The notes under the pieces were generated by a model. The model saw only the letters and a program-made list of their open reading frames with translations. It searched no databases and was not told the DNA's origin. This document shows positions 21 to 22,862 of a stretch of DNA of 64,000 bases, one piece after another. The stretch lies in the sequence record ON528732; one strand, written 5' to 3'. Numbering within the stretch: position 1 is the stretch's first letter; each line of letters opens with the position of its first letter. Source of the stretch: Shigella phage ESh22. A program made the position numbers and the translations under genes.

Positions 21-98
21 TGGTGTTCCAAGACGGATTCGAACCGTCACTAATACAAGGTTTGAGCTTGCATCCTCTGCCAATTGGGATACTGGAAC
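21..98 (-). tRNA. tRNA, isotype undetermined (anticodon loop reads CAA but D-arm is atypical)
   Basis: Minus-strand T-arm GACGG-TTCGAAT-CCGTC, 7-bp acceptor pairing (GTTCCAG/TTGGAAC), encoded CCA. Confidence 0.6.
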
Positions 99-99
99 T

Positions 100-174
100 T
101 GGTACTCGCTGAAGGACTTGAACCTTCTTCACCAACTTGTAAGGATGGGGCTTTACCATATAAACTAAGCGAGC
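100..174 (-). tRNA. tRNA-Val (anticodon UAC)
   Basis: T-arm GGTTCAAGTCC, acceptor GCTCGCT/AGCGAGT, CCA encoded, loop CTTACAA. Confidence 0.7.
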
Positions 175-268
175 TTTAAAGAGGTCTGAAGTTGTGCCGC
201 TAACTCAACTCCGTGGAATTTGTTACGGTCTTCAGTTGACTCAAGCGGTCTTTCACTTGACCTCAAAT

Positions 269-345
269 TGGTGCTGCTCACAGGACTTGAACCCGCATCT
301 CCATCCTTACAAGGGATGTGTAATAGCCAATTATACGAAAGCAGC
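269..345 (-). tRNA. tRNA-Thr (anticodon UGU)
   Basis: T-arm GGTTCAAGTCC, acceptor GCTGCTT/GAGCAGC, CCA encoded, anticodon stem CATCC/GGATG with loop CTTGTAA. Confidence 0.7.
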
Positions 346-351
346 ATTATT

Positions 352-426
352 TGGAGCATCCAGAGGGAATCGAACCCTCAACCTCAGTTTGGAAGACTGT
401 AATTTTCCCGTTTAAACTATGGATGC
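352..426 (-). tRNA. tRNA-Gly (anticodon UCC)
   Basis: T-arm GGTTCGATTCC, acceptor GCATCCA/TGGATGC, CCA encoded, loop CTTCCAA. Confidence 0.7.
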
Positions 427-432
427 ACTAAT

Positions 433-508
433 TGGTGGAGAAGCAGGGAATTGAACCCTGTACTTAAGTTTGCAAAACTTATGTTTTAACCATGTAAACT
501 ACATCCCC
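433..508 (-). tRNA. tRNA-Ala (anticodon UGC)
   Basis: T-arm GGTTCAATTCC, acceptor GGGGATG/CTTCTCC (one mismatch), CCA encoded, anticodon stem TAAGT/ACTTA with loop TTTGCAA. Confidence 0.65.
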
Positions 509-514
509 GATATT

Positions 515-590
515 TGGTACAGGTGGAGGGAATTGAACCCATCATCTTACTGATTAAGAGTCAGCCGCATAACCATTTTGCTACACCTGC
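515..590 (-). tRNA. tRNA-Lys (anticodon CUU)
   Basis: T-arm GGTTCAATTCC, acceptor GCAGGTG/CACCTGT, CCA encoded, loop CTCTTAA. Confidence 0.7.
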
Positions 591-597
591 ACTAATT

Positions 598-675
598 TGG
601 TGGGAGACAAGGGATTCGAACCCTCAAACACCAACTTCTAAGGATGGTAGGTTTACCAATTACCGTCAATCTCCC
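598..675 (-). tRNA. tRNA, isotype undetermined (loop reads UAG but D-arm is atypical)
   Basis: T-arm GGTTCGAATCC, acceptor GGGAGAT/GTCTCCC, CCA encoded. Confidence 0.6.
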
Positions 676-922
676 ATTAAATCTTTGTAGAGAGCTTCCA
701 AGACTCCAAAGCAACAATGGTATATTATGCCTTGAAAACTCTCTAAAAAGACCTAAACAGTCTTTATATAGTCTTATTCAATCCGGTGACTAGAACCTTT
801 GGAGAGCTTGATACTATCTCTTCTCCGTGACACCTACTAGGTGCTTTATAGTCGTGCCGTGTACGCCAATACACGAGTAAAAACCGAGCTTGTTCGACGA
901 GCGCGGGAATTAAATCTTATTA

Positions 923-1009
923 GGCGGTAAGTAAAGGAGTCGAACCCTCACCGTATCTCTACAGTGGCAACTGTTTTCAAGACAGTTTGGCTACCATTAG
1001 CCGCTACCT
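923..1009 (-). tRNA. Type-II tRNA-like gene, Ser(UGA)-like anticodon arm, weak acceptor pairing; possibly degenerate
   Basis: T-arm GAGGG-TTCGACT-CCTTT, anticodon stem ACTGT/ACAGT with loop CTTGAAA, long variable region, no encoded CCA, only about 5 bp acceptor pairing. Confidence 0.4.
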
Positions 1010-1025
1010 ACCCCTAATGAGACTT

Positions 1026-1108
1026 TGGCATGGGACGGAGGAATCGAACCCCTTTGAGTAAGTTTTGGAGGCTTACGCACATGCCTTAGTGTCTTAACAT
1101 CGTCCCAT
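1026..1108 (-). tRNA. tRNA, 83 nt with extended D region; anticodon uncertain (possibly CCA/Trp)
   Basis: T-arm GGTTCGATTCC, perfect acceptor ATGGGAC/GTCCCAT, CCA encoded. Confidence 0.5.
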
Positions 1109-1268
1109 ACTATAATTCGAAGCTTACCGTATTATCACAACACTGTCAAGCCCCTTCTCAGATTATTTACATGTTCTGGAAAACATGAGATACAGACCAC
1201 CTCCTTATGAGATTGACTCTTTCAAGTCAATGCGGAGACCCATAAAGGTCGTCGTAGTAATCTGCTAA

Positions 1269-1616
1269 CTAATATTTTGCATGTCTTATTCTGTGGCAAT
1301 TTGCACAAAGTAACACACATTTATCAAGTTCATCCTTCAACTCTTTAGAGAATTTTAGGCTTTTCCTTCTACCAATACTAAAATCTTTTTCTGAAGGATT
1401 TAAATGATGAAAGTCATACACTGCCGGATGATACCTTTTACCACAATCGTAACATACACCACCTTTATACTCTATTGCGAGTATCTTTAAGTTTCTCTGT
1501 CTTTCGATTGTTTGCTCATTGACACACTGTTTACAGTATGAATGAGTCATCTTACCATCTTTCATGTAGAAATCATTATCATCCTTGTTCAGTTTACACT
1601 TTATACAAGTTCTCAT
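1269..1616 (-). CDS. HNH homing endonuclease embedded in the tRNA array
   Basis: 115 aa ORF; Cys-rich N-terminus (CxxC, CxxC) and C-terminal HNH-like motif YDFHHLNP...CVLLCANCHRIRH. Confidence 0.6.
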   Translation of the reverse strand: MRTCIKCKLNKDDNDFYMKDGKMTHSYCKQCVNEQTIERQRNLKILAIEYKGGVCYDCGKRYHPAVYDFHHLNPSEKDFSIGRRKSLKFSKELKDELDKCVLLCANCHRIRHAKY

Positions 1617-1631
1617 GATTTCATCCTAAAT

Positions 1632-1707
1632 TGGCACTCCGTATAGGACTCGAACCTATATATGAACTGTTTAGAAGACAGTTGCCTATCCTTTAGACTA
1701 ACGGAGC
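1632..1707 (-). tRNA. tRNA-Arg (anticodon UCU)
   Basis: T-arm GGTTCGAGTCC, acceptor GCTCCGT/ACGGAGT, CCA encoded, anticodon stem ACTGT/ACAGT with loop CTTCTAA. Confidence 0.7.
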
Positions 1708-1984
1708 ATTAACATTTTAAAGAGCACTCATTGCATTTAAGCCAAGCCCCATAAGGGATGCTCTTTAGAATGTTGCCCACTTTATTAATCATACCGTGGG
1801 CTAGTACGCCAAATTCTTTAACAGGGAGTTGGAATACCCTGCTGGTGTTTAGCCTATTAAGCTACTGCCAGAAAAACATTATCGTTTGCATTTATTTTTA
1901 AGTTTTTAAAATAGACGCTACGCTAACGAAAACTAAGGTTATCTTAAAGTGGTCACATCTGAAATGTCAACAACTTTATGAAAT

Positions 1985-2059
1985 TGGTTGTAGGTGAGGG
2001 TATCGAACCCTCTTCTAACGGTTATCAGCCGTTTGCATTACCATTTATGCTAACCCACA
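1985..2059 (-). tRNA. tRNA-Ile (anticodon GAU)
   Basis: T-arm GGTTCGATACC, acceptor TGTGGGT/ACCTACA, CCA encoded, anticodon stem AACGG/CCGTT with loop CTGATAA. Confidence 0.65.
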
Positions 2060-2061
2060 AT

Positions 2062-2138
2062 TGGAGGTTCAGGTGGGAATCGAACCCACATTCATAGGGC
2101 TTATGAGACCCTTGCATTACCTTATCTGCGACTGAACC
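2062..2138 (-). tRNA. tRNA-Met (anticodon CAU; could be elongator Met or Ile2)
   Basis: T-arm GGTTCGATTCC, acceptor GGTTCAG/CTGAACC, CCA encoded, loop CTCATAA. Confidence 0.65.
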
Positions 2139-2142
2139 ATTT

Positions 2143-2218
2143 TGGTAGAAGTGGAGGGATTCGAACCCATCGCCTGTCAGATTAAAAGTCTGCCGCATCA
2201 CCATTCTGCTACACTTCC
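2143..2218 (-). tRNA. tRNA-Lys (anticodon UUU)
   Basis: T-arm GGTTCGAATCC, acceptor GGAAGTG/CACTTCT, CCA encoded, loop CTTTTAA. Confidence 0.7.
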
Positions 2219-2639
2219 ATTAAATCATCTTTGCAGTAACCTACGCAAACCTTGCTAAAGGGTTTGTAGAGTTATCTCTTAGTAAGCTAATCTAGAATCA
2301 TGCTCAAGAGATTCATCGGCACTCATGGGACGATATATTAGCTCCATAAGTCACTGCAAAGAGGATTACCAGACCGTATCATCTTAAGTGCTACCATTAC
2401 ACCAACACGCCGTAACGTGTGAAGGAATCGAACCTTCTCCCTTTCTTTTATAGAGAATTAGATTGTTTAAATTGCTGTAAACGGTCTTCTGTAAATTTGT
2501 TGGAACCAGACCAAGTTTTAAATTTTTCAAATTAATTGGCTTGAAATATTTTTGTTGCTTGCTGAATTTGGTCTTCTGCTCCTTTAAAGAATACTCACAA
2601 GAACTCTTTAAGGGAGGGGCTAAAAAGCCCTCTCAAATT

Positions 2640-2717
2640 TGGCGGTTACGAAGGGATTCGAACCCTCATCATCCTCCGTGACAGGGAGGTATTTTAACCA
2701 GATTAAACTACATAACC
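2640..2717 (-). tRNA. tRNA-Asp (anticodon GUC)
   Basis: T-arm GGTTCGAATCC, acceptor GGTTATG/CGTAACC, CCA encoded, anticodon stem CCTCC/GGAGG with loop CTGTCAC. Confidence 0.75.
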
Positions 2718-2723
2718 TTTATT

Positions 2724-2811
2724 TGGTGCGCCGTGAAGGAGTCGAACCTACCGAGTCGTAATGACAAGCGATTTACAGTCGCCACCGCTTCCATCTACGG
2801 GATAACGACGC
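2724..2811 (-). tRNA. tRNA-Tyr (anticodon GUA), type II
   Basis: 88 nt with long variable arm, T-arm GGTTCGACTCC, acceptor GCGTCGT/ACGGCGC, CCA encoded, loop CTGTAAA. Confidence 0.7.
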
Positions 2812-2821
2812 ATTTAAATTT

Positions 2822-2898
2822 TGGCGGTTAGTCAGGGATTCGAACCCTGTGCCATTCGGTTAACAGCCGACCGCACATGCCTTATGTGCTTCCTAACC
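2822..2898 (-). tRNA. tRNA-Asn (anticodon GUU)
   Basis: T-arm GGTTCGAATCC, acceptor GGTTAGG/ACTAACC, CCA encoded, loop CTGTTAA. Confidence 0.65.
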
Positions 2899-2981
2899 GT
2901 GTTTAACATTACCAGACCGTATTCATTTTAATTTTCCGATAAAATTGTTTTTAAATTGCTGTAAACGGTCTTCTGTAAATT

Positions 2982-3058
2982 TGGAGGCGGGTGTTGGAGT
3001 CGAACCAACCGTTACCATGCTAATGAGACATGTGAGACGCCCTTTCTCTATACCCGCG
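2982..3058 (-). tRNA. tRNA with CAU anticodon (Met, fMet or Ile2); 1-72 mismatch
   Basis: T-arm GGTTCGACTCC, acceptor CGCGGGT/ACCCGCC with unpaired position 1, CCA encoded, loop CTCATTA. Confidence 0.55.
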
Positions 3059-3143
3059 ATTCTTAATGACCAGACCAAGCTTTTTATGTTTTCTATGCGC
3101 GAAAAGTAAAAGTTGTTTGCTGTATTTGGTCTTCTGTCAAATT

Positions 3144-3221
3144 TGGCGTTCCAGAAGGGACTTGAACCCTCAAAACTCCACATTGAAAGTGTGGTGACTT
3201 TACCAATTTGTCTACTGGAAC
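3144..3221 (-). tRNA. tRNA-Glu (anticodon UUC)
   Basis: T-arm GGTTCAAGTCC, perfect acceptor GTTCCAG/CTGGAAC, CCA encoded, anticodon stem CCACA/TGTGG with loop CTTTCAA. Confidence 0.75.
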
Positions 3222-3227
3222 ATAATT

Positions 3228-3307
3228 TGGTCTCCGTTGAAGGATTTGAACCCTCGACCCCTTGCTCCCAAAGCAAGTGCTGCTAAACCAAACTGAGCTA
3301 AACGGAG
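3228..3307 (-). tRNA. tRNA-Pro (anticodon UGG)
   Basis: T-arm GGTTCAAATCC, acceptor CTCCGTT/AACGGAG, CCA encoded, D-arm GCTCAGTTTGG, anticodon stem CTTGC/GCAAG with loop TTTGGGA. Confidence 0.7.
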
Positions 3308-14053: not shown

Positions 14054-15700
14054 GAACTACATAGCCCCTTAATATGGATTCGATAGAATCTATCTCATAG
14101 GGGCTTTTTATTGAGTAAAATTTACGAAATTTATATTTCTTATAAAATTTGGATTCACTCCGTTCATCTTGGGTCACCATGATATGTGATAAAATATCAA
14201 TACCCTCTTCAACAACCTATCTAAGCATACTCTCTATATAGTATTATATAGTATCTATATAGCCTCTTAGTCCCTATCTAGTGAAACTATATAGCCCCTT
14301 CTAAATAGCCCTTTATAAAGCTCTCTAACAAGCCCTCTTCCACACCTATACAATCACCTTCCTAGCTTCTCCATAGCCCCTTAGAAGCCCCTATATCCAT
14401 CTTAATCTCTATGTTAAGGATGATACCCTCTATAGATGGTTCACTAGGGTCAACTAAGCCTCTATATAGACTGTTATATAACACTAAACAGGTATTCCCT
14501 GTAAAGGCTTATCCTACAAGGTCTAACACGTTACTAACAAGATATCTTATAAGCCTGTTATTACCTGTTTTATAGAAGATAGTGTATAGATAGTTATTCA
14601 GTTCTATAAAATTTTTATAAAATAGACTAGGTAGGTCACTTTTTAGGTTCTTGGGAGTATCTGAAAAATATCTACAAAGGGTGTATATCTGCTTGGTAGC
14701 CCTTAACAGCCCTGTAACATCCCCTTTGCAGTTTTTTAAAATATCATTAACAATTTCTTTACAACTCTAACAAGTCTCTAACAAGTCTCCATAGTTCTTA
14801 ACAATCCCTTAATAGTTCTAACAAGGATGTAACAAGAGTTTAACAGTTCTTACAAGGGTCTAACAAACTACTAACAAGTCCCTAACATGTTAAATTTAAA
14901 AGTTATTTTGTTAAGATTATTAACAAGTGTCTATTAAGTTCTTAACATGTTTAACAGTTTATTAACATGGTCACTACCTCTTGGTCTATAGTTCCCTATC
15001 CCTCTCAGTGATTCTCTAAACAGCCCTCTTAAAAGCCCTGTATAGCTCTATGTAGCCTCTTCTAAGGTTCTTCCTAGTATCTATACCCCAATTACCTGTA
15101 TAGCTCTTTATAGCCCTTTACAGGGGCTTATATAGGTACTTCAAAGAGCCTAACAAGGTTGTAACGTAGTCTTAACAGAGATTTAACAAGGTGCTAACAA
15201 GTTGCTAATAAGCATAACTATGTAGGGATTGTTAAGATTTTGTTAAAGAAATGTTAAGGGGGCTAGCTTTTACGATACTTTTACGTAACTCTTAAGTAAC
15301 TTCATAGCCCCTATAACATACTTCATAACCACTATCAAGCCCCTGTTTAACTATTCACAAGATACTAACGAGATAATAAAGCTTATACCCCTTATAAGAT
15401 TCTTTTAAGGCTCTAGAAAGCTCTATAAAGGGCTTTTAAGAAGTGGTTAATATGATTGCTTAAGATGAGATGATAAGCCCGTATAGAGCGTTATAGAGCG
15501 TTATAGAGATTGCCCTTCCCTTTCGGGTTATGGGCTTATATTTAAGGGAAAAGTTAGTTGATTTGATAAGAGGTTATAGAGTAAGCTATAGAGTTATTAC
15601 TCTAAATGTCTTACAAGGTTCTGGGAAGGGATTTAGTTAGACGTAAAAAAGCCCCATTGAAGGGGCTTGTATAGGGTCTGGGGCTATTTGCCCCGTTGCG
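14054..15700. repeat. ORF-free, repeat-rich, strand-skewed non-coding region (short degenerate repeats TAACAAG, ATAGCCCCT; tandem 10-mer x3 at 15481-15512)
   Basis: No ORF of 60 aa or more in any frame; stop-codon-dense; flanked by convergent transcription units. Confidence 0.6.
15645..15668 (-). terminator. rho-independent terminator ending the minus-strand early block
   Basis: Minus-strand hairpin GCCCCTTCAATGGGGC followed by TTTTTT. Confidence 0.6.
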
Positions 15701-15708
15701 GCGTCTTG

Positions 15709-15957
15709 TTAGTTGCGGCCTTCTTTATCGTAATAGATAGAGATAAGAGAATCGCCCCAATAGTAAGATGAAACGCCATTTGCTAAAATCTCGTCTTTCG
15801 TTTCTTTCCAGAACCATTCAGCAGGGTTGTATTCTTTCACAGTTGCTTTCAGACACATATCAACCATATCAAAAGCGTTTCCAGTGTTTACCATGTCAAA
15901 CTTAACGTCCAGAGCATAAAAACCAAAATTGTTAACAGTTGCGCGGATAGTTGCCAT
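15709..15957 (-). CDS. hypothetical early protein
   Basis: 82 aa ORF; conserved CCTAAACTGGAGA leader immediately upstream. Confidence 0.5.
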   Translation of the reverse strand: MATIRATVNNFGFYALDVKFDMVNTGNAFDMVDMCLKATVKEYNPAEWFWKETKDEILANGVSSYYWGDSLISIYYDKEGRN

Positions 15958-15999
15958 TTTTAGAATCTCCAGTTTAGGATTATTGTTTATTGAGTCTCT

Positions 16000-16028
16000 A
16001 TAGTAGGGGCTTTGAAGCCCCTTGTCAA
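16000..16028 (-). promoter_or_regulatory. sigma70-like promoter with GC palindrome in spacer
   Basis: Minus strand TTGACA, 17-nt spacer AGGGGCTTCAAAGCCCC, TACTAT, followed by conserved leader with GGAGA RBS. Confidence 0.55.
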
Positions 16029-16032
16029 TACT

Positions 16033-16209
16033 TTAAATCACTTTCTTGTAAGAATTGCCGGAAATGATGTAGTTAGTAACTGAATGATTTAACAAGTCTG
16101 TACCAGTGATGACTACCATTTCTTCATTTTTCTTTTCTTCATGCTCTTTTTTCATTTCTTCCCAACGTTTAGCACCAAATTTTGCAATCATACGCTGTTC
16201 AAAATTCAT
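16033..16209 (-). CDS. small hypothetical protein (about 58 aa)
   Basis: ORF below track size cut-off, preceded by the conserved leader at 16210-16232. Confidence 0.35.
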   Translation of the reverse strand: MNFEQRMIAKFGAKRWEEMKKEHEEKKNEEMVVITGTDLLNHSVTNYIISGNSYKKVI

Positions 16210-16269
16210 CTTTTAAGTCTCCAGTTTAGGATTATGGGGAAGGTCATTCCCTCCCCGTTGATAAGTACT

Positions 16270-16797
16270 TTAAATGTTTGCTATCGTGTCGTCAAGTGAA
16301 TTTTCTAAGTTTTTTAAAGATTGTTCGTAAAGTCGAATTGACCTGTTCAATGCCTCGCCTAACGTTACTTTAAAAATAGTTGTTGGGTAGTCACTTGTAA
16401 ATAGATTTTCTACTTCATAGAGCGCATGTTGATGATTACCCGTCCCCATAGCATACATCCCCGTATGGTGGATTGCAATAAAAAGATTAAGAGACTTGAT
16501 AGAACGCTCATAAGCCATTTTATAGCGGTTTAGCTCGTTTTTAGTGGCTTTTATAGCCATTTCGTGAATCTCTGCAACGATAGCCATATAGTCTGGCAGA
16601 ATGACCGCTATGGCTTTCATAAAGTTGTTAGCTGTTACCATTTGCTGATTTGGGCGATGGATGTAATACTTCTTGTCTTCCCCTTTTGTGATAACTGCAA
16701 ACAACTTATCTTTAAGGGTAAATTCGAAAGTGTCTTTCACAGGTTTTTTCATTACATCTTTTGAGCGGATAGCATTGATTGCATTGAACTTATTCAT
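16270..16797 (-). CDS. hypothetical early protein
   Basis: 175 aa ORF preceded by conserved leader. Confidence 0.5.
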   Translation of the reverse strand: MNKFNAINAIRSKDVMKKPVKDTFEFTLKDKLFAVITKGEDKKYYIHRPNQQMVTANNFMKAIAVILPDYMAIVAEIHEMAIKATKNELNRYKMAYERSIKSLNLFIAIHHTGMYAMGTGNHQHALYEVENLFTSDYPTTIFKVTLGEALNRSIRLYEQSLKNLENSLDDTIANI

Positions 16798-16848
16798 CTT
16801 TGAAGTCTCCAGTTTAGGATTGTTGGTAAAGCTCTTTATCTGGGGCTT

Positions 16849-16877
16849 ATCTTATCGAACTATAAACCCCATGTAAA
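16849..16877 (-). promoter_or_regulatory. sigma70-like promoter, TTTACA-N17-TAAGAT, palindrome-containing spacer
   Basis: Minus strand TTTACA..GGGG..CCCC..TAAGAT upstream of conserved leader for gene 16270..16797. Confidence 0.5.
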
Positions 16878-16883
16878 GCACTT

Positions 16884-17081
16884 TTAGTAAATCTCATCAA
16901 ATAAATTATTGATTGCAAAAATAGCATTTTCTTTGAATCCTTGGCTATTGCTATCATCACAAAACATAACTTTACCATTGTATGTGATTTTTAATGATAC
17001 CTTTGAACCTTCAACATTCAAAGAATAAGATACACCTTTTAAACACCACAAAGTAGAAAGTTTTTGCATCAATGATAACAT
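16884..17081 (-). CDS. hypothetical early protein
   Basis: 65 aa ORF preceded by conserved leader. Confidence 0.45.
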   Translation of the reverse strand: MLSLMQKLSTLWCLKGVSYSLNVEGSKVSLKITYNGKVMFCDDSNSQGFKENAIFAINNLFDEIY

Positions 17082-17147
17082 TTTAGAATCTCCAGTTTAG
17101 GATTTTATCAGGTTGGGAGGTTTTATTCCCTCCCGTTGATGAGTACT

Positions 17148-17267
17148 TTACTTGTTTTGATTTGCCTTTGCAAGCTTTTTATCAAAGATTTTATCATCTA
17201 TTTCGCTGGCTATTAAGAGTAGGAAAGGGGTCACTACTGAGAATACCATCATATACAAAATAATCAT
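17148..17267 (-). CDS. small hydrophobic peptide (39 aa)
   Basis: ATG directly after conserved leader at 17270-17292; single predicted TM segment. Confidence 0.35.
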   Translation of the reverse strand: MIILYMMVFSVVTPFLLLIASEIDDKIFDKKLAKANQNK

Positions 17268-17452
17268 TTTTGAATCTCCAGTTTAGGAAGTTAACCGACT
17301 GAGAGAACTATAGAGAATCTTTGAAGCAATTGCAAGGCTTATCTATAAAGAATCTTTTAAGTGAATCCTTTTAGATAAACCCCCTCGAACAAATGTACTA
17401 TTGTCAAGGGGTAAAGTCAACAGTTTTTTCAAAGTATTTTGTAAGTTACTGA

Positions 17453-17794
17453 TTAGCTTATAAAGATTTTTTCAGGCTTGACATAGGTCATTTTTTGGTC
17501 TTTGAGTAAATCACTCCAGATTAAAGCGGCAATGTGACCATAGCCGGATTCACGTAATATCTTCATTGTGTTAACTTTTGTTTCAAATCGTGTTGCATAG
17601 TATTCACTGTTTAAGGTTGTTTTATTTCCTTCTTTGTCAGTGTGAACTATACGCATCACATGAAACGGGCTAACATCCTCGCCGCGATTCCATTGCTCAA
17701 AGTATTTTAGGCACTGTAAAGGCGACACTTTATCACTTACTTTTGTAGACCAAGATGAATTTTCTTTATCAGTAATTATGGTTACATGTGCCAT
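17453..17794 (-). CDS. hypothetical early protein
   Basis: 113 aa ORF preceded by conserved leader. Confidence 0.5.
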   Translation of the reverse strand: MAHVTIITDKENSSWSTKVSDKVSPLQCLKYFEQWNRGEDVSPFHVMRIVHTDKEGNKTTLNSEYYATRFETKVNTMKILRESGYGHIAALIWSDLLKDQKMTYVKPEKIFIS

Positions 17795-17841
17795 TTTCAG
17801 ATTCTCCAGTTTAGGAAGTGGGCTTGATAGATACTGTAACT

Positions 17842-17991
17842 TTACTTAATACGGTTTACAATAGATTTTTTCTTTAAATGTAGTTTTTCTGCTTTTTTCA
17901 TGGTTTTTACTAGTAACATCATGATAAATGAGAAAATCATCTCTGAGAATACAGGGTTGTTAAAAACTGTCTCAATAGTATGCGTCATCAT
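17842..17991 (-). CDS. small hydrophobic peptide (about 49 aa)
   Basis: ATG directly after conserved leader at 17991-18012. Confidence 0.3.
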   Translation of the reverse strand: MMTHTIETVFNNPVFSEMIFSFIMMLLVKTMKKAEKLHLKKKSIVNRIK

Positions 17992-18065
17992 TTGAATCTC
18001 CAGTTTAGGAAAGCTCTTTATCTGGGGCTTATAGTAGCAAGGTTTAAAGCCCCATGTAAAGTACT

Positions 18066-18302
18066 TTATTTGTAAATCTCTAAAAATTCATCTTCATTAA
18101 CGTTTTCGTAGTATTCTGTGCTTTCGTCTTCACCTTGTAAGACATAACAGTCCATTATAGACGATTTCGGGTAGTCCTGTCTAGCAATATTGAAAGCCTC
18201 TACTGCATTTTGTTTAGTGCCTTCGAAAGATTCCATAATGCCATAATGACAATTATTTGCACCAGAGCAAACGGCAAGCATGAGATAGATAGTCGTTAAC
18301 AT
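18066..18302 (-). CDS. hypothetical early protein
   Basis: 78 aa ORF. Confidence 0.45.
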   Translation of the reverse strand: MLTTIYLMLAVCSGANNCHYGIMESFEGTKQNAVEAFNIARQDYPKSSIMDCYVLQGEDESTEYYENVNEDEFLEIYK

Positions 18303-18365
18303 GATTTAAACCCCTTGTAAGCCCCTATACAGGGCTTTTGAATGTTGTTAGTGTGATTATATGGT

Positions 18366-18923
18366 TTACGCTAAAACGTCGCTTACAGTGCTTTCTGTGA
18401 TGTTAGATTGTAAGTTGTCGCACAAATCACAAAACACGTTATTCATCTCATCGCTACGTTGAATCATTACAGCAATGTTATGTAATTCATCAGGTACATA
18501 GCCAAGATTTCTATTGTTTAAGTTAGGTACAAAGAACGGCGCATACATAGCATTAAAATCAGTTGTGTAAATCTTTTTAATCCAAGATTTATCAAAGTGT
18601 TCTGTAAAGCTTGCAACGTCGCTCATATTCTCACAACTCCAGTCATCTTGTAATTCATCCTCTGGAATGTCAAGTTCCAAGATAACTATTTTTTGTGATT
18701 TCATCTGGAAAGCTGCTGTAATGCTTGCGCTATCAAGAGCATTTCGGATACCCTCATCAGTGATTTGTTCTGCGTCCATATCTTCTACATCATAGAACTT
18801 GCTAACAGGGTAAACATAAAAACACCCATCACTATCTGAGCAATTCCAAGCCCCTGAAGGTTTTTCTCCACCACTTAGCAGGTTTACAAAGTTTTCTTGA
18901 GTAGTTCCGTGAAAGCATTTCAT
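18366..18923 (-). CDS. hypothetical early protein
   Basis: 185 aa ORF preceded by conserved leader. Confidence 0.5.
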   Translation of the reverse strand: MKCFHGTTQENFVNLLSGGEKPSGAWNCSDSDGCFYVYPVSKFYDVEDMDAEQITDEGIRNALDSASITAAFQMKSQKIVILELDIPEDELQDDWSCENMSDVASFTEHFDKSWIKKIYTTDFNAMYAPFFVPNLNNRNLGYVPDELHNIAVMIQRSDEMNNVFCDLCDNLQSNITESTVSDVLA

Positions 18924-19010
18924 TTTATAATCTCCAGTTTAGGATTATTGGGGCTTGCTTGCCCGTTGATGAGTACTTTAATATATCTAAAAATCAGTGT
19001 CAAACGTTTT

Positions 19011-19412
19011 TTAAAGTTCTGCGTAAATTGTATCGCAGATATCTTGAAAATCTTGCTTTTCTAAATTACGTTGTAACCACGTTGCAAAGAAATCAGCAAT
19101 TGCAAAGTTAGCATCAAACTCAACAGATAGCCACACTTTAACAGCAAATCGAAACATTTTCAAGTCTAATTCTTTATTAAGAACTTTTGACTTTGAAAGC
19201 ATATCAGCCATTTCATATTGTGCGCCGTCAAGTGTAACACCCTGTGCAACATTTGCAAGTGAATCTCTGATGTTTTCTACGTCTAAAATTACGCCTTGAA
19301 CTTTACCGATAATGCTATGTAAAACCTCATCCGGTGCGGTTGACGTGATAGCATTAATGCGGTTAACGGTCAAACGTGCTTTCAGAATAGCGATATCACG
19401 ATTAGTAGTCAT
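19011..19412 (-). CDS. hypothetical early protein
   Basis: 133 aa ORF preceded by conserved leader. Confidence 0.5.
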   Translation of the reverse strand: MTTNRDIAILKARLTVNRINAITSTAPDEVLHSIIGKVQGVILDVENIRDSLANVAQGVTLDGAQYEMADMLSKSKVLNKELDLKMFRFAVKVWLSVEFDANFAIADFFATWLQRNLEKQDFQDICDTIYAEL

Positions 19413-19498
19413 TTTTGAATCTCCAGTTTAGGTTATTGGGTAAATCTCTTTATCTGGGGCTATCTTATCAACCTGATAACCCCATGTAAAGCAATTTA

Positions 19499-19771
19499 TT
19501 AGACTAAATACAACTTTTTACCATTAACAATAATGTAACTTACACCACTATTGCTATAAACATCTTGATAAATTCTGCGTAACTTGCCTAAATAGCGTAC
19601 TTTCCAAGATGTAGGAATTTTCTTTCCATATCCTGTAGCTGTTTTTTGTAAACCTACTATTTGCCAATCTAATAAATGTTGCTCCGCTTTCAAGTCTTCA
19701 AAGTTTAATACACCATCTATATAGTGCTTTAAAGTTACGTTTAAAGTTCTGCCATTATTAGTTGTATACAT
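19499..19771 (-). CDS. hypothetical early protein
   Basis: 90 aa ORF preceded by conserved leader. Confidence 0.5.
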   Translation of the reverse strand: MYTTNNGRTLNVTLKHYIDGVLNFEDLKAEQHLLDWQIVGLQKTATGYGKKIPTSWKVRYLGKLRRIYQDVYSNSGVSYIIVNGKKLYLV

Positions 19772-19857
19772 TTTCAGATTCTCCAGTTTAGGATTGTTGG
19801 GGCTTCTATCTTGCCCCGTTGATGAGTACTTTACTTGTTTTGATTTGCCTTTGCAAG

Positions 19858-20184
19858 CTATTTTTTGCGTTTATTAATTTCTTGTGTAATAACCGGATAA
19901 TATTCTTTTAAATCAGTAGCTTGAATAGCATTTAGCAACGCATTGTAATCATTAACAAGCTCAAAGTTACCGGATAAAACATCACTGATTTGATAAGTGT
20001 CTGCCTTAAACCTGAAGCCCATCTCTAAACGCTGTAATTGTTCCACGCTTAAACGCTCTAGGAAGCTGCTTACAAGGTTTATTTTAACTTTCCTTGTGAT
20101 AGCCTTATCTGCATAATCTGAGGCTTGATAGGCTTTATACAGCGCCACAATTGAAATCAGAATTGCAATACCAGAAAGTAACAT
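19858..20184 (-). CDS. hypothetical membrane protein
   Basis: Track ORF 19858..20241; start moved to ATG at 20184 with GGGAAGG RBS; N-terminal TM segment. Confidence 0.4.
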   Translation of the reverse strand: MLLSGIAILISIVALYKAYQASDYADKAITRKVKINLVSSFLERLSVEQLQRLEMGFRFKADTYQISDVLSGNFELVNDYNALLNAIQATDLKEYYPVITQEINKRKK

Positions 20185-20185
20185 T

Positions 20186-20476
20186 TTAAACCTTCCCAAC
20201 GTGTGATAATCTACCAGTGTGACTAATTTCATATGAATCAATCATATCAGCTTTTGATTTTACTGCTGATTTGCTAGTATTATCATAAATGTCAACCTGA
20301 AGCAATGGCTTGCCATGTTCTTTTTGAAAGTTCCAAATACAGATTAAAACTTCTTTCTTGTTAATCTTCCCATGATACCACTCTATAACACCCTGTGAAC
20401 GTCTATGAGATTCTACAAAAGAAATGTTTTGTAGTAATTGGCTTAACTTTGAGCGTACATTAGCAGGAATTTTCAT
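20186..20476 (-). CDS. hypothetical early protein
   Basis: 96 aa ORF preceded by conserved leader. Confidence 0.5.
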   Translation of the reverse strand: MKIPANVRSKLSQLLQNISFVESHRRSQGVIEWYHGKINKKEVLICIWNFQKEHGKPLLQVDIYDNTSKSAVKSKADMIDSYEISHTGRLSHVGKV

Positions 20477-20560
20477 TTTAGATACTCCAGTTTAGGATTG
20501 TTGGTAAAGCTCTTTATCTGGGGCTATCTTATCAGCCTGATAACCCCATGTAAAGTACTT

Positions 20561-21073
20561 TTAGATATTAAAGATATTCATCACACTATCTTTTAAATCT
20601 TCCAAGCGCTCTAAAACTTCCTCTTCAGCACCTGAATTACTCACTTCCTCTTTTAAGCGTGAATCTAAATCTTCCCCGTCAAGATAGCACCAATCGAAAC
20701 CATACGCAAGAGAAAAACTATTTAGAACCGTGTTCCCTTCTGAGTCAATCACTGAGGCGTATAGAATGTAGCTATTTGCCCCTAAATCCCTTTCTAGTTC
20801 ATCTTGTAAGCTCTTGTAAGCGGCTAATGATGGGTTATCCCTTCCCTGTTTTGCGTAATCACTGGCAAGCTGTGAAAGCGCATAGTGCATAGGAATTGCA
20901 TATTTGTAGCCGTTACGTTCTGAGTTTTTAACTTTGATTGTAACTCCTCCTTTATGCTCATCAGTGAATTGCCAGTTATCCACACAATGGGAAGGCTCAT
21001 AAACATTCATTGCTTCAAAGATGATAGTAAATTTTTCTTTTTGAACTTCAAAGGTGCTTTCGACTGATTTCAT
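20561..21073 (-). CDS. hypothetical early protein, acidic C-terminus
   Basis: 170 aa ORF preceded by conserved leader. Confidence 0.5.
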   Translation of the reverse strand: MKSVESTFEVQKEKFTIIFEAMNVYEPSHCVDNWQFTDEHKGGVTIKVKNSERNGYKYAIPMHYALSQLASDYAKQGRDNPSLAAYKSLQDELERDLGANSYILYASVIDSEGNTVLNSFSLAYGFDWCYLDGEDLDSRLKEEVSNSGAEEEVLERLEDLKDSVMNIFNI

Positions 21074-21159
21074 TTTTTGAATTTCCAGTTTAGGATTGTT
21101 GGTAAAGCTCTTTATCTGGGGCTTATACTATCGACTTATAAACCCCATGTAAAGTACTT

Positions 21160-21417
21160 TTAGATTAAATTGCCAATTAATGCTAAGTGCATTTTGTAAC
21201 CCTGTTTTGTAAACACGTTAGTGTTACCGATAGTTTTTACACCTTTAAACATATTGCAAGAGCTATGTTTGAGAGTTAATTTTTTGTCTGTCTTTACGCC
21301 CCATCTTACAGCAGAATCTTTTCCGTTGTCAACCACTTTACCATTTAATTTTTTAGCAGTTGCACGAGCATCATCACGGGATTTTGCAGTAATTACGATG
21401 TTTTTAATGGTAGCCAT
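21160..21417 (-). CDS. hypothetical early protein
   Basis: 85 aa ORF preceded by conserved leader. Confidence 0.5.
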   Translation of the reverse strand: MATIKNIVITAKSRDDARATAKKLNGKVVDNGKDSAVRWGVKTDKKLTLKHSSCNMFKGVKTIGNTNVFTKQGYKMHLALIGNLI

Positions 21418-21504
21418 TTTTAGAATCTCCAGTTTAGGTTAGTGATAAAATTCTTTATCTGGGGCTTATACTAGCAACTCATAAACCCCATGTAAAGCAC
21501 TTTA

Positions 21505-21888
21505 TTAGTTAATTTTGAAATCTGTTACATACCCATCACTACCAATCATTTGAGATACGCCAGCTTTTTCGACATTGTAACCCATATTAGCAAGATGATA
21601 GATTGCATCCTCATAACCATAAGTGCCACCCTGATAGCGGCGTTTATCACAACGGATTAACGTTTTACCACGTGCAGCCAGTGCATTGATGATGGCTTTT
21701 TCTCCTGAGAGTGTATCATCTAACATTGTAACGGTGTAGTGGTTTATCTTGTTACCGTTTACATCATACTTAAAATTGTATGCGTGTACAACAATTATTT
21801 TGCCTTTGAATTGCTCATTCATGGAATTTTCCAGAGCATCGCGAAAGTTTTCTTTCTTGATAAACTTTGGCATATAGTATTTTTTCAT
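21505..21888 (-). CDS. hypothetical early protein
   Basis: 127 aa ORF preceded by conserved leader. Confidence 0.5.
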   Translation of the reverse strand: MKKYYMPKFIKKENFRDALENSMNEQFKGKIIVVHAYNFKYDVNGNKINHYTVTMLDDTLSGEKAIINALAARGKTLIRCDKRRYQGGTYGYEDAIYHLANMGYNVEKAGVSQMIGSDGYVTDFKIN

Positions 21889-21976
21889 TTTAGATTCTCC
21901 AGTTTAGGATTGTTTAGTGATAAAGTTCTTTATCTGGGGCTTAAGATACTACCTTTTAAACCCCATGTGAAGCACT

Positions 21977-22138
21977 TTATGCAATAATTTTTATAAAATC
22001 TTTCATGGTTATTTTGTCGCCATTTGTTAGGGCTATGCAGTCATTACCCATCACTGACTTGTAAAGATAGAAAACTTTTCCCGTTTTAGGGTAGCCGTCT
22101 AAATCCTTGTAACGTATTACATTGCTTTCTTTAATCAT
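21977..22138 (-). CDS. small hypothetical protein (53 aa)
   Basis: ORF below track size cut-off; weak RBS. Confidence 0.25.
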   Translation of the reverse strand: MIKESNVIRYKDLDGYPKTGKVFYLYKSVMGNDCIALTNGDKITMKDFIKIIA

Positions 22139-22150
22139 TGTCAAGCCCTT

Positions 22151-22357
22151 TTAAACGTCATAGTAGTAAACTGCTGTATGTCTTGTAAACTGTCTTGTGT
22201 GATTTGTCAAATAACAATCCGACCTGATTGATGTATCAACATACTTGTCATAATCCTTTTCGGATATTCTCTGCCATACATCACAAATAAGCATAAAGAA
22301 ACGGCGCTTTTTAGTCTTGTTATTGTCTACAATCATCAATTGGCGTTGATATAACAT
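22151..22357 (-). CDS. hypothetical early protein
   Basis: 68 aa ORF preceded by conserved leader at 22360-22382. Confidence 0.45.
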   Translation of the reverse strand: MLYQRQLMIVDNNKTKKRRFFMLICDVWQRISEKDYDKYVDTSIRSDCYLTNHTRQFTRHTAVYYYDV

Positions 22358-22544
22358 TTTAGAATCTCCAGTTTAGGATTGTTGGGATTGCTTCCCGTTG
22401 ATGCAAATACTATAAGACTGGTTTTTTAGAGTCAAGCAAATTTTTAAAAATATTTTTGGCATGTTGTGAATGAAACGGGCGCGTACACATAGCACTAAAC
22501 AGAAAACTAGTCAAGAATTATTTTTTAATCCGCTACAAATTTTT

Positions 22545-22800
22545 CTCTTGACTTTTGGGAGGAAGGGGAGTAAGAGGGGGTGGTGGGGCTGGCTGGCTAT
22601 ATCTGGCTACCTGCACAAATTGAAAATGAATTTTCTTGCCCGACCTGATTTTTCTCTGCACAATTTTGAAATGAAAAAGCTCTTTGGAGTTCACCTGCAC
22701 AAATTGAAAATGAATTTTCCCTTTGGAGTTGACTTTGATTTCACTCTACAGATTTCTTTATAGACCTTTATCTGCACGATTTTGAAATGAAAAAGCCCTC
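22545..22800. repeat. G-rich tract followed by four copies of a 22-26 bp iteron-like repeat
   Basis: CCTGCACAAATTGAAAATGAATTTTC at 22610-22635 and 22697-22722; related CTGCACAATTTTGAAATGAAAAAGC at 22647-22673 and 22771-22797. Confidence 0.6.
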
Positions 22801-22862
22801 CTTACCTTGTGTTTGCAAGAACAAGAAAGGCTTACTCTATTGTGAATACTTTACAAAGTTAC

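What the first reader, a model, noticed from the sequence alone, without database searches (positions are those of the whole stretch)
15961..22400. Fifteen-copy promoter and leader cassette driving the small early genes
The plus-strand motif CTCCAGTTTAGG (one copy reads TTTCCAGTTTAGG) occurs 15 times (near 15967, 16218, 16807, 17090, 17276, 17804, 17998, 18932, 19421, 19781, 20485, 21083, 21427, 21897, 22366), always ending within about 10 nt of a minus-strand start codon. On the minus strand it reads CCTAAACTGGAGA-N6-ATG, giving a shared RBS and 5' leader. Upstream of most copies is a sigma70-like promoter (TTGACA or TTTACA, 17-18 nt spacer, TAnnAT-like -10) whose spacer contains a GC palindrome (GGGGCT..AGCCCC); a second variant has CAACGGG..CCC. 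This degree of leader conservation suggests co-regulation, possibly with an operator or RNA structure.
Basis: seen in the sequence. Interest (0 to 1): 0.6.

Follow-up and report, generated by a model that had tools for sequence, protein, structure and literature searches.

The report
Repeated promoter–hairpin–leader cassettes before early genes
In this Felix O1-like phage, 15 small early genes of unknown function each sit behind a repeated unit holding a host-type promoter, usually an RNA hairpin, and an identical ribosome-binding leader; this looks like the same kind of cassette already described in T4-like phages, and relatives appear to swap genes at these units.

Summary
CTCCAGTTTAGG occurs 15 times (0.33 expected), all on one strand, and each copy ends 6-9 nt before a minus-strand ATG. 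The window is a Felix O1-like phage (Ounavirinae, nearest Mooglevirus).

All 15 copies have a -35/N17-18/-10 pair upstream.
- Seven "type A" cassettes place the whole promoter inside a 54-56-nt, roughly 21-bp hairpin. Folding z-scores, compensatory changes and sense-strand G·U pairs support this hairpin.
- Five "type B" cassettes place a small GGG..CCC hairpin just after the -10.
- One has the hairpin inside the spacer, and two have none.

The 13-nt leader is near-invariant in 114 cassettes from nine phages and is absent from the window's other 93 genes.

Relatives differ by whole cassette+ORF units, and two junctions are chimeric cassettes.

The closest known system is the PeSL cassettes of T4-like phages. 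No sequence similarity outside Ounavirinae was found. The leader was already reported as an "SAS-like" 26-bp repeat in phage Mordin, and the hairpin repeat was listed for Felix O1, neither with a function.

Promoter, hairpin and recombination activities are inferred, not measured.

The parts
22355..22435 (-). Cassette 1, type B, before the 68-aa ORF (ATG 22357). TTGACT 22435-22430, N17, TAGTAT 22412-22407, hairpin GGGAAGCAATCCC 22396-22384, leader 22377-22366.
21886..21977 (-). Cassette 2, type A, before the 127-aa ORF. TTCACA 21971-21966, N17, TATCTT 21948-21943, extended hairpin 21977-21923, leader 21908-21897.
   Evidence: (dG -21.9, z -2.7)
21415..21502 (-). Cassette 3, type A, before the 85-aa ORF. 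TTTACA 21496-21491, N17, TAGTAT 21473-21468, hairpin 21502-21448, leader 21438-21427.
   Evidence: (dG -23.5, z -3.2)
21071..21159 (-). Cassette 4, type A, before the 170-aa ORF. TTTACA 21153-21148, N17, TAGTAT 21130-21125, hairpin 21159-21105, leader 21094-21083. This is the one variant copy: the SD reads GGAA.
   Evidence: (dG -25.5, z -5.6)
20474..20560 (-). Cassette 5, type A, before the 96-aa ORF. TTTACA 20554-20549, N17, TAAGAT 20531-20526, hairpin 20560-20507, leader 20496-20485.
   Evidence: (dG -26.8, z -4.3)
19769..19856 (-). Cassette 6, type B, before the 90-aa ORF. TTGCAA 19856-19851, N17, TAAAGT 19833-19828, hairpin GGGGCAAGATAGAAGCCCC 19817-19799, leader 19792-19781.
19410..19496 (-). 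Cassette 7, type A, before the 133-aa ORF. TTTACA 19490-19485, N17, TAAGAT 19467-19462, hairpin 19496-19443 (the U-A variant of the outer stem), leader 19432-19421.
   Evidence: (dG -24.5, z -4.4)
18921..19003 (-). Cassette 8, type B, before the 185-aa ORF. TTGACA 19003-18998, N17, TAAAGT 18980-18975, hairpin 18964-18950, leader 18943-18932. It is chimeric relative to the G-R and R-H junctions of phage HP1.
17989..18066 (-). Cassette 9, type A with a shortened leader, before the 49-aa ORF. TTTACA 18060-18055, N18, TACTAT 18036-18031, hairpin 18066-18011, leader 18009-17998.
   Evidence: (dG -23.2, z -3.8)
17792..17861 (-). Cassette 10, no GC hairpin, before the 113-aa ORF. TTGTAA 17861-17856, N17, TACAGT 17838-17833, leader 17815-17804.
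17265..17335 (-). Cassette 11, no GC hairpin in the cassette itself, before the 39-aa ORF. TTGCAA 17335-17330, N17, TATAGT 17312-17307, leader 17287-17276.
17079..17173 (-). Cassette 12, type B, before the 65-aa ORF. TTGCAA 17173-17168 lies inside the upstream ORF. N17, then TAAAGT 17150-17145, whose first three bases TAA are the upstream stop codon. Hairpin 17134-17115, leader 17101-17090.
   Evidence: (z -2.8)
16795..16883 (-). Cassette 13, type A, before the 175-aa ORF. TTTACA 16877-16872, N17, TAAGAT 16854-16849, hairpin 16883-16829, leader 16818-16807.
   Evidence: (dG -24.8, z -4.3)
16207..16295 (-). Cassette 14, type B, before the 58-aa ORF. TTGACG 16295-16290 lies inside the upstream ORF. 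N17, then TAAAGT 16272-16267 (TAA is the upstream stop). Hairpin GGGGAGGGAATGACCTTCCCC 16256-16236, leader 16230-16219.
   Evidence: (z -2.6)
15955..16028 (-). Cassette 15, with the hairpin wholly in the spacer, before the 82-aa ORF. TTGACA 16028-16023, spacer containing GGGGCTTCAAAGCCCC 16021-16006, TACTAT 16005-16000, leader 15978-15967.
   Evidence: (z -2.8)
15649..15668 (-). The only canonical intrinsic terminator of the array (AAGCCCCTTCAATGGGGCTT followed by TTTTTT), downstream of the last ORF.

Best explanation
The region is a variable (hyperplastic) array of small early genes of a Felix O1-like phage. Nearly every ORF is an autonomous expression module preceded by a conserved cassette of about 70-95 nt.

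(1) Promoter. A promoter of the host sigma-70 type drives each ORF. This is inferred from sequence conservation and from RT-PCR timing in Felix O1.

(2) GC-rich stem-loop acting in sense-strand RNA. In type A it is an interrupted hairpin of about 21 bp holding the -35 in its 5' arm, the -10 in its loop and 3' arm, and the predicted start site in its 3' arm. It can therefore form only in transcripts reading through from the upstream gene. There it probably attenuates or terminates transcription, or serves as a processing or 3'-stabilising site. [quoted passage not shown] That the structure exists is supported; what it does is inferred.

(3) Leader. An invariant leader, CCTAAACTGGAGA-N5-8-ATG, gives every ORF the same ribosome-binding context.

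(4) Recombination. Because the cassettes repeat along the array, they act as recombination sites. ORFs are gained, lost, moved and re-paired with other promoters at these sites. This is supported by comparison of relatives; the mechanism is inferred.

Overall this is the counterpart in Ounavirinae of the promoter-early stem-loop (PeSL) cassettes of T4-like phages.
For: Motif: 15 copies against 0.33 expected, all on one strand, each 6-9 nt from an ATG.

Promoter.
- All 15 copies have a -35/N17-18/-10 pair.
- Among 58 parsed type A copies from 10 phages, the -35 is TTTACA in 53 and the spacer is 17 nt (46) or 18 nt (12). The alignment shows the T, A and final T of TAnnnT as invariant while the middle and the neighbouring loop positions vary.
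- Felix O1 genes 16 and 20, directly downstream of type A repeats, peak at 5 min.

Structure.
- Type A intergenic regions fold at -22 to -27 kcal/mol with z-scores of -2.7 to -5.6.
- RNAalifold independently predicts the same three-part stem.
- 99.6% of cells are paired, against 96.2±0.5 in shuffles (0 of 500 reach it) and 36-65% when partners are slid.
- Compensatory changes: outer stem G-C to U-A in 8 unique copies; inner stem G-C to U-A in Erwinia phage SunLIRen; apical inner-stem positions 7-9.
- Sense RNA is more stable than antisense in 28 of 30 sequences.

Leader: about 2 bits per position across 13 nt in 114 cassettes of all types, and absent from the window's 93 non-array genes.

Shuffling.
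- The 15 proteins fall into 15 unrelated families. Relatives differ by whole cassette+ORF units, and the same ORF family sits behind A, B or other cassette types in different phages.
- 51 of 60 blastn alignment ends fall in the 21% of the array that is intergenic.
- Two junctions are chimeric.

Gene content: the ten largest array proteins match only PHROG families of unknown function and have no significant Pfam domain.

The PeSL description in PMC2839356 matches the anatomy point by point.
Against: - No transcription start, termination or processing data exist for any Ounavirinae cassette in the literature I could search.
- The hairpins lack a U-tract, so they are not canonical intrinsic terminators.
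- Covariation rests on few independent events. The U-A outer-stem class is largely one lineage of positional orthologues, and the statistics are not corrected for phylogeny.
- Alignment ends would cluster at gene borders to some extent even without cassette-mediated recombination.
- Two cassettes have no hairpin, so the stem-loop is not obligatory.
- The strict invariance of CCTAAACT upstream of GGAG is not explained by pairing with 16S rRNA (only GGAG is complementary, from my own knowledge of the 16S 3' end). It may reflect a trans-acting factor.
Confidence: 0.68

Rival explanations
1. The invariant leader is the functionally central part. It is a 'start-associated sequence' recognised by a dedicated trans-acting factor, either a phage or host protein or an RNA. 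That factor switches translation or mRNA decay of the whole early ORF set on or off together, as T4 RegA and RegB do. The promoter and hairpin parts are secondary.
For: - Thirteen positions are near-invariant in 114 cassettes regardless of promoter type, and the motif is absent from all 93 other genes in the window.
- Only GGAG can pair with 16S rRNA (own knowledge of the 16S 3' end).
- The leader is lineage-specific. Erwinia relatives carry CCCTTAyAAAGGAATC in the same place in all their cassettes, as expected if it co-evolves with a factor.
- The authors of the Mordin genome note and of the cluster K SAS paper considered the same idea.
Against: - No RegA or RegB Pfam family was found among 52 ORFs of 85-270 aa in the window. 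About 23 kb of the genome and the smaller ORFs were not scanned.
- Uniformity within a genome can equally come from recombination or gene conversion between cassettes, which is documented here.
- This idea is not exclusive of the best explanation.
Confidence: 0.25
2. The type A hairpin is specifically a host RNase III processing site, like those between the early genes of T7. It would cut read-through transcripts into monocistronic mRNAs. The upstream mRNA would keep a 3' hairpin, and the downstream mRNA would gain a 5' end close to the promoter's own start site.
For: - It is an interrupted double-stranded stem of about 21 bp (5 + 5 + 10-11 bp, with 1x1 and 2x2 internal loops) between cistrons. 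This is about the length RNase III needs (own knowledge of T7 early-region sites).
- There is no U-tract, which argues against simple intrinsic termination.
- The structure is specific to the sense strand.
Against: - There are no cleavage data, and I did not evaluate RNase III sequence determinants.
- PeSL stem-loops in RB49 and phi1 behaved as terminators in reporter assays (PMC2839356).
- Type B hairpins are too short (4-8 bp) to be RNase III substrates.
Confidence: 0.25
3. The inverted repeats act in DNA as operators. Two copies of the palindrome TAAAGnnCTTTA flank the type A promoter core, at the -35 and at +1, and bind a phage repressor that shuts off early transcription. The Cro/C1-type HTH protein encoded at 58902-59201 would be a candidate.
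For: - Both flanks of type A contain the self-complementary motif TAAAG-NN-CTTTA, overlapping the -35 and the start region.
- The window encodes an HTH_3 protein.
- For cluster K ESAS inverted repeats, DNA binding was the preferred reading.
Against: - In the U-A class, the flanks become TAAATTGCTTTA and TAAAGAGATTTA. Each flank loses its own symmetry while complementarity between the two flanks is kept.
- The conserved G·U positions would be A·C mismatches on the other strand, and the sense strand folds about 3.5 kcal/mol better.
- Half-sites 7 bp apart are unusual for HTH dimers (own knowledge).
Confidence: 0.1
4. The repeats are non-functional remnants of tandem gene duplication, or a selfish miniature repeat that spread through intergenic gaps.
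For: Many copies are clustered in one region of each genome, with some near-identical copies within a genome.
Against: - The 15 downstream proteins fall into 15 unrelated families.
- Orientation is strict, and the distance to the ATG is fixed.
- The TAnnnT positions are conserved within a variable loop.
- The cassettes are conserved across four genera, including Erwinia phages, with compensatory changes.
Confidence: 0.04

Closest known systems
PeSL (promoter-early stem-loop) cassettes of T4-like phages RB49/phi1, PST/T4 and nt-1/KVP40 (Arbiol et al. 2010, PMC2839356; Comeau et al. 2014, PMC4122927)
   Same: - It is a composite intergenic unit of about 100 bp: upstream stop codon, sigma-70-like -35/-10, a stem-loop that is often GGGG..CCCC, then SD and start codon.
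- The stem-loop sits in different positions relative to the boxes: in the spacer, overlapping the -10, or downstream of the -10.
- The stems contain G·T pairs.
- The cassettes are concentrated in variable regions in front of ORFans.
- Indels and replacements between close relatives are bounded by the cassettes, with chimeric cassettes at the junctions.
   Different: - It occurs in a different phage subfamily (Ounavirinae). blastn hits came only from Ounavirinae-type phages and none from T4-like phages, so it is an analogue, not a detectable homologue.
- Here a 13-nt leader including the SD is essentially invariant.
- Type A is an extended hairpin of about 21 bp that encloses the whole promoter, which the text I read does not describe for PeSLs.
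- Promoter activity, terminator activity and mini-circle formation were shown experimentally for PeSLs but not here.
Start-associated sequences (SAS) and extended SAS of cluster K mycobacteriophages (Pope et al. 2011, PMC3203893)
   Same: - A short asymmetric repeat in one orientation, with 11-19 copies per genome.
- It lies a few nt upstream of ATG starts, contains the SD core plus conserved positions not explained by rRNA pairing, and is confined to non-structural genes with long intergenic gaps.
- About half the copies carry an upstream inverted repeat.
- The Mordin genome note (PMC4611695) drew this parallel for the very motif studied here.
   Different: - The consensus is unrelated (GGGATAGGAGCCC), and the host and phage group are different.
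- ESAS inverted repeats showed no support for RNA pairing and were read as DNA-binding sites. Here covariation and G·U pairs support an RNA hairpin.
- The cassettes here carry obvious sigma-70 promoters.
Published sightings of this same element: the 57-bp and 39-bp direct repeats of Felix O1 (Whichard et al. 2010, PMC3185647) and the 26-bp repeat CCAACAATCCTAAACTGGAGAATCTA of Citrobacter phage Mordin (Guan et al. 2015, PMC4611695)
   Same: The Felix O1 57-bp repeat CTTTACATGGGGCTTAAAAGTCTGTAAAGTAAGCCCCAGATAAAGAGCTTTACCACT is a type A cassette. The 39-bp repeat is a type B-like promoter. The Mordin repeat is the leader.
   Different: Those papers list the repeats without recognising the promoter or the composite architecture. 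The Felix O1 paper says other promoters could not be found, and the Mordin note says the role is unknown. They do not mention the extended hairpin or the recombination pattern.
RNase III processing hairpins between the early genes of phage T7 (own knowledge)
   Same: Interrupted hairpins of about 20 bp, without U-tracts, sit in the intergenic gaps of a host-RNAP-transcribed early region.
   Different: T7 has promoters only at the start of its early operon, whereas here every gene also has its own promoter. Cleavage is untested.

Membership tests
PeSL cassettes (T4-like phages) | [quoted passage not shown] | tested here: met
   All 15 copies have -35/N17-18/-10. Twelve score 9-10 of 12 consensus positions in the scan, and three (ATG 19771, 17794, 17081) were found only by the looser pattern. 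In type A copies from 10 phages the -35 is TTTACA in 53 of 58, and TAnnnT is invariant in the alignment.
PeSL cassettes (T4-like phages) | Stable stem-loop, often polyG..polyC, placed variably relative to the -35 and -10 boxes | tested here: met
   13 of 15 cassettes have a GGG(G)..CCC(C) stem-loop: straddling the spacer and -10 (7), downstream of the -10 (5), or wholly in the spacer (1). Supported by folding z-scores and covariation.
PeSL cassettes (T4-like phages) | Bounded by the upstream gene's stop codon / AT-rich stretch and by the SD + start codon of the downstream gene; about 100 bp | tested here: met
   Type A runs from the stop codon (TAA is part of the outer stem) to the ATG, about 90 nt. 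In type B the upstream stop TAA is the start of the -10.
PeSL cassettes (T4-like phages) | Concentrated in hyperplastic regions next to ORFs without known function | tested here: met
   All copies lie in 15.9-22.4 kb and none elsewhere in the 64 kb. Gene content is variable among 9 relatives. The ten largest proteins match only PHROGs of unknown function and have no significant Pfam domain.
PeSL cassettes (T4-like phages) | Differences between related phages arise by recombination between cassettes (indels/replacements bounded by cassettes, chimeric cassettes) | tested here: met
   Differences are whole cassette+ORF indels, one ORF is translocated, and the same ORF sits behind different cassette types. 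51 of 60 alignment ends fall in cassettes, which make up 21% of the bases. The KMM4 K-N junction and the window's G-H junction are chimeras. The analysis is not corrected for phylogeny.
PeSL cassettes (T4-like phages) | Experimentally shown promoter and terminator activity; mini-circle formation | not testable with these tools
   The only indirect evidence is the early RT-PCR signal for Felix O1 genes 16 and 20.
PeSL cassettes (T4-like phages) | Sequence relatedness to the RB49/phi1 cassettes | tested here: not met
   Sensitive blastn with type A and B cassettes hit 287 and 184 phage records. All are Ounavirinae-type phages of enterobacteria and Erwinia, apart from a few oddly labelled records. 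None is T4-like. So it works like a PeSL but is not a detectable homologue.
SAS/ESAS (cluster K mycobacteriophages) | Short asymmetric repeat, 11-19 copies per genome, one orientation, a few nt upstream of (mostly ATG) start codons, containing the SD core | tested here: met
   15 copies in the window and 10-15 in each of eight enterobacterial relatives (5 in the 12-kb Felix O1 stretch examined). All are on one strand, with GGAG 6-9 nt from an ATG.
SAS/ESAS (cluster K mycobacteriophages) | Conserved positions that 16S rRNA pairing cannot explain | tested here: inconclusive
   CCTAAACT is as conserved as GGAG. Only GGAG is complementary to the 16S 3' end, judged by eye from my own knowledge, with no energy calculation.
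SAS/ESAS (cluster K mycobacteriophages) | Upstream 17-bp imperfect inverted repeats whose variation does not support RNA pairing | tested here: not met
   Here the variation supports pairing.
SAS/ESAS (cluster K mycobacteriophages) | Consensus GGGATAGGAGCCC | tested here: not met
   The leader is CCTAAACTGGAGA.
Intrinsic (Rho-independent) terminator | GC-rich hairpin immediately followed by a U-tract | tested here: not met
   The scan reports no cassette hairpin on the coding strand. Only 15649-15668 at the end of the array qualifies. Type A hairpins are followed by AGAUAAAG or ACCAACAA.
RNase III processing site (T7 early-region type) | About 20 bp of interrupted double-stranded RNA in an intercistronic hairpin | tested here: met
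   Type A only: 5 + 5 + 10-11 bp with small internal loops. Cleavage itself cannot be tested here.

The most novel reading that the evidence does not exclude
The type A element is a dual-use device. Read in DNA, it is a promoter. Read in RNA from upstream, the same 55 nt fold into a roughly 21-bp hairpin that is cut or terminates transcription, so read-through and newly initiated mRNAs get the same standard leader. That invariant, lineage-specific 13-nt leader is the target of a dedicated, still unidentified trans-acting regulator that controls the whole early ORFan set at once.
Probability: 0.2. Interest if true: 0.6.

Novelty: new member of a known kind. Interest (0 to 1): 0.4.

Why it matters
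- Felix O1-like phages are widely used for Salmonella typing, biocontrol and therapy, yet their early transcription is undescribed. The 2010 genome paper stated that promoters and temporal control were unknown.
- Recognising these cassettes gives a testable map of about 15 early promoters and leaders per genome.
- It suggests how this subfamily gains, loses and rewires its early ORFs of unknown function, which could include host-takeover or anti-defence genes.
- It points to natural 'plug-in' sites and portable promoter/RBS parts for engineering these phages.
- It extends the PeSL idea of modular shuffling beyond T4-like phages and links it to the unexplained 'start-associated sequences' of mycobacteriophages.

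Tried and rejected
- Rfam search of the region at E≤1: no match.
- Search for a RegA/RegB-type regulator that could target the GGAG leader. Pfam scan of 52 mid-size ORFs found none, only one HTH_3 protein.
- Looked for the cassettes outside Ounavirinae by sensitive blastn: none found.
- Literature search for transcriptomics or promoter mapping in Felix O1-like phages: none found. The wV8 paper does not mention promoters, and the phiEa21-4 paper is not held.
- The MAFFT alignment of the inner stem was out of register for the AGCCCC-versus-AAGCCCC indel class. I replaced it with counting anchored on the GGGG and CCCC ends.
- I first read AGATAAAGAGCTTTA as a local palindrome or mini-hairpin. I rejected that because the loop would be only 2 nt and because it pairs with the 5' flank instead.
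- The 'two palindromic operators' reading was weakened by the compensatory pattern.
- Nearest-neighbour analysis for concerted evolution: most cassettes are closest to their positional orthologue (84 of 114 uniquely). Only 6 are closest to a same-genome paralogue alone (5 more tie), so homogenisation within a genome is occasional, not pervasive.
- I did not fetch RB49 to compare its PeSL sequences directly.

Full report
**Observation.** The 12-mer CTCCAGTTTAGG occurs 14 times exactly and once with one mismatch. All copies are on the + strand between 15967 and 22377, against 0.33 expected from shuffles. On the minus strand it reads CCTAAACTGGAG, and GGAG ends 6-9 nt before an ATG that opens an ORF of 39-185 aa. 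Three further ORFs in the array lack the motif. The motif and the two longer cassette signatures (CCCCAGATAAAG and AYTYATCAACGGG) occur nowhere else in the 64-kb window as part of a cassette.

**What the genome is.** The region is 97% identical to Citrobacter phage BSwM KMM4 and 94% identical to Shigella phage SFPB (Ounavirinae, Mooglevirus). It matches 248 Felix O1-like phage records. In records with determined ends, the array lies next to the genome terminus. The 570-bp terminal repeat of phage HP1 aligns to about 14.7-15.3 kb of the window, just beyond the last array gene.

**Anatomy.** The conserved unit is far longer than 12 nt.
- Type A (7 copies): stop codon, AAGTRC, TTTACA, N17-18, TAnnnT, A(A)GCCCC, AGATAAAGAGCTTTACC, a short variable stretch, CCTAAACTGGAGA, N5-8, ATG.
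- Type B (5 copies): TTGACA-like -35, N17, TAAAGT or TAGTAT, AYTYATCAAC, a small GGG..CCC hairpin, AACAAT, then the same leader. In two of them the upstream stop codon TAA is the start of the -10, and the -35 lies inside the upstream ORF.
- One cassette (ATG 15957) has GGGGCTTCAAAGCCCC wholly within the spacer.
- Two cassettes have a promoter and leader but no GC hairpin.

**Promoter evidence.** All 15 copies carry a -35/-10 pair with a 17-18 nt spacer. Twelve score 9-10 of 12 consensus positions in the scan. I collected 126 cassettes from the window and nine relatives in three genera. Among 58 parsed type A copies, the -35 is TTTACA in 53 and the spacer is 17 nt (46) or 18 nt (12). In the alignment of 37 unique copies, the first two bases and the last base of the -10 never vary, while its middle and the neighbouring loop positions do. 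That is the signature of a -10 element, not of a structural constraint. The Felix O1 genome paper lists a 57-bp repeat, which is a type A cassette, between genes 15/16 and 19/20. It reports genes 16 and 20 among those maximally expressed 5 min after infection (PMC3185647). No start sites have been mapped.

**Hairpin evidence.** Folding the intergenic regions showed that type A is an extended hairpin.
- AAAGU pairs with GCUUU.
- CUUUA, which overlaps the -35, pairs with UAAAG of AGAUAAAG.
- U-GGGGUUUAUA pairs with UAUAAGCCCC-A.

Together this gives about 21 bp with 1x1 and 2x2 internal loops, ΔG of -22 to -27 kcal/mol, and z-scores of -2.7 to -5.6. RNAalifold on 30 unique sequences from ten phages predicts the same three-part stem. 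On that alignment 99.6% of cells pair, against 96.2±0.5 in shuffles (0 of 500 reach it) and 36-65% with slid partners.

Compensatory changes are present:
- an outer-stem pair is G-C in 28 and U-A in 8 unique flank combinations, with 4 mismatches;
- an inner-stem G-C becomes U-A in Erwinia phage SunLIRen (GGTG..CACC);
- the apical inner-stem positions switch among U-A, A-U and C-G.

Two conserved G·U pairs make the sense-strand RNA more stable than the antisense in 28 of 30 cases (-20.5 versus -17.0 kcal/mol). In the U-A class, each flank loses its own palindromic symmetry while complementarity between the two flanks is kept. This favours one long hairpin over two DNA operators.

The covariation rests on few independent events and is not corrected for phylogeny.

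The predicted type A start site lies in the 3' arm, so the full hairpin can form only in transcripts coming from the upstream gene. There is no U-tract, so it is not a canonical terminator. The only canonical terminator follows the last gene, at 15649-15668. Type B hairpins are short (4-8 bp), vary in sequence but not in position, and would sit at the 5' end of their own transcripts.

**Leader evidence.** Thirteen positions (CCTAAACTGGAGA) carry about 2 bits each in 114 cassettes, whatever the promoter type. None of the window's 93 other genes has this leader; their SDs are varied. Erwinia relatives carry a different but equally uniform leader, CCCTTAyAAAGGAATC, in the same place. Only GGAG is complementary to the 16S 3' end (own knowledge). 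The cause of the extra conservation is therefore open: a translational context, a trans-acting factor, or homogenisation by recombination. No RegA/RegB-type family was found among 52 mid-size ORFs.

**Recombination evidence.**
- The 15 downstream proteins belong to 15 unrelated families.
- Relatives differ by presence or absence of whole cassette+ORF units.
- One ORF (65 aa) sits at three different positions in three phages.
- The same ORF family lies behind type A, type B or other cassettes in different phages.
- Of 60 blastn alignment ends inside the array, 51 fall in the intergenic cassettes, which make up 21% of the bases. Some clustering at gene borders is expected in any case.
- Two junctions are chimeras. 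KMM4's K-N cassette matches the window's K-L cassette on its 5' side (59/91 against 42/91) and the window's M-N cassette on its 3' side (64/72 against 43/74). The window's G-H cassette equals the 5' part of HP1's G-R cassette joined to the leader part of HP1's R-H cassette.
- Most cassettes are still closest to their positional orthologue, so exchange is occasional.

**Comparison with known systems.**
- The anatomy and the genomic behaviour match the PeSL cassettes of T4-like phages feature by feature (PMC2839356, PMC4122927).
- No sequence similarity outside Ounavirinae was found (287 and 184 records).
- Rfam has no matching family.
- The leader was already reported in Citrobacter phage Mordin as a 26-bp repeat 'reminiscent of start-associated sequences', role unknown (PMC4611695).
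- The SAS/ESAS of cluster K mycobacteriophages share the position and copy number, but not the sequence and not the RNA-pairing support (PMC3203893).

**Verdict.** The element is best filed as a new, Ounavirinae-wide member of the PeSL kind, and parts of it have been noted in print before. Two things appear to be new, as far as the literature I could search shows: the promoter-enclosing extended hairpin with covariation, and the documented cassette-bounded gene shuffling. All functional steps remain to be shown experimentally: promoter use, the fate of the hairpin RNA, the role of the leader, and the recombination mechanism.

Noticed in passing
window 14100-15700: An ORF-poor stretch just beyond the array. 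Window 14695-15772 aligns at 84% to HP1 locus 1-1106, whose first 570 bp are the annotated terminal repeat. The physical genome end therefore probably lies near 14.7-15.3 kb, inside the window, and the early array is transcribed towards it.
   Followed up: partly
window 17268-17452 (minus strand): An unusually long (185-nt) intergenic gap upstream of cassette 11. It folds into two strong hairpins (ΔG -39.5 kcal/mol, z -4.0). Part of it (GATTCTTTATAGATAAGC) is conserved upstream of the corresponding promoter in relatives. There is no Rfam match.
   Followed up: partly
window 22400-22860: A gap of about 450 nt between the macro-domain gene and the first array gene. It contains an imperfect direct repeat, TTCATTT(T)CAA(A)(A)TTGTGCAG, twice, plus a third GTGCAG. 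The 97-aa + strand ORF there looks spurious.
   Followed up: no
window 58902-59201 (+): A 99-aa protein with a Cro/C1-type HTH_3 domain (E 4e-7) in a virulent phage. It is a candidate transcription regulator whose target is unknown.
   Followed up: no
window 21-3307 (minus strand): A cluster of 18 tRNA genes, including two tRNA-Met.
   Followed up: no
window 45219-46264 (minus strand): Two adjacent putative homing endonuclease genes: a SegE-like GIY-YIG (E 3e-25) and an HNH_3 + AP2 domain protein.
   Followed up: no
window 21083-21094: The single variant leader copy changes the SD from GGAG to GGAA in front of the 170-aa ORF. All nine relatives examined have GGAG at the orthologous cassette.
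   Followed up: partly
L001 (Moogle) cassette before the 98-aa ORF; L004 (EcSzw-2): Moogle has one type A copy that combines the U-type 5' flank (AAATTG) with the C-type 3' flank (GAGCTTT), giving a U×C mismatch, as expected from a crossover inside the hairpin. Separately, the EcSzw-2 record (UNVERIFIED) has Ns inside several cassettes. Two records labelled Staphylococcus and Campylobacter phage appear among the Ounavirinae hits, probably through mislabelling.
   Followed up: no
L010 (Erwinia phage SunLIRen) 5900-12700: The Erwinia relatives have a homologous array with further architectures. For example, in TTGACA-N18-TAAAAT the -10 is the loop of an AGGGG..CCCCU hairpin. They also have their own uniform leader, CCCTTAyAAAGGAATCAAAA.
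   Followed up: partly
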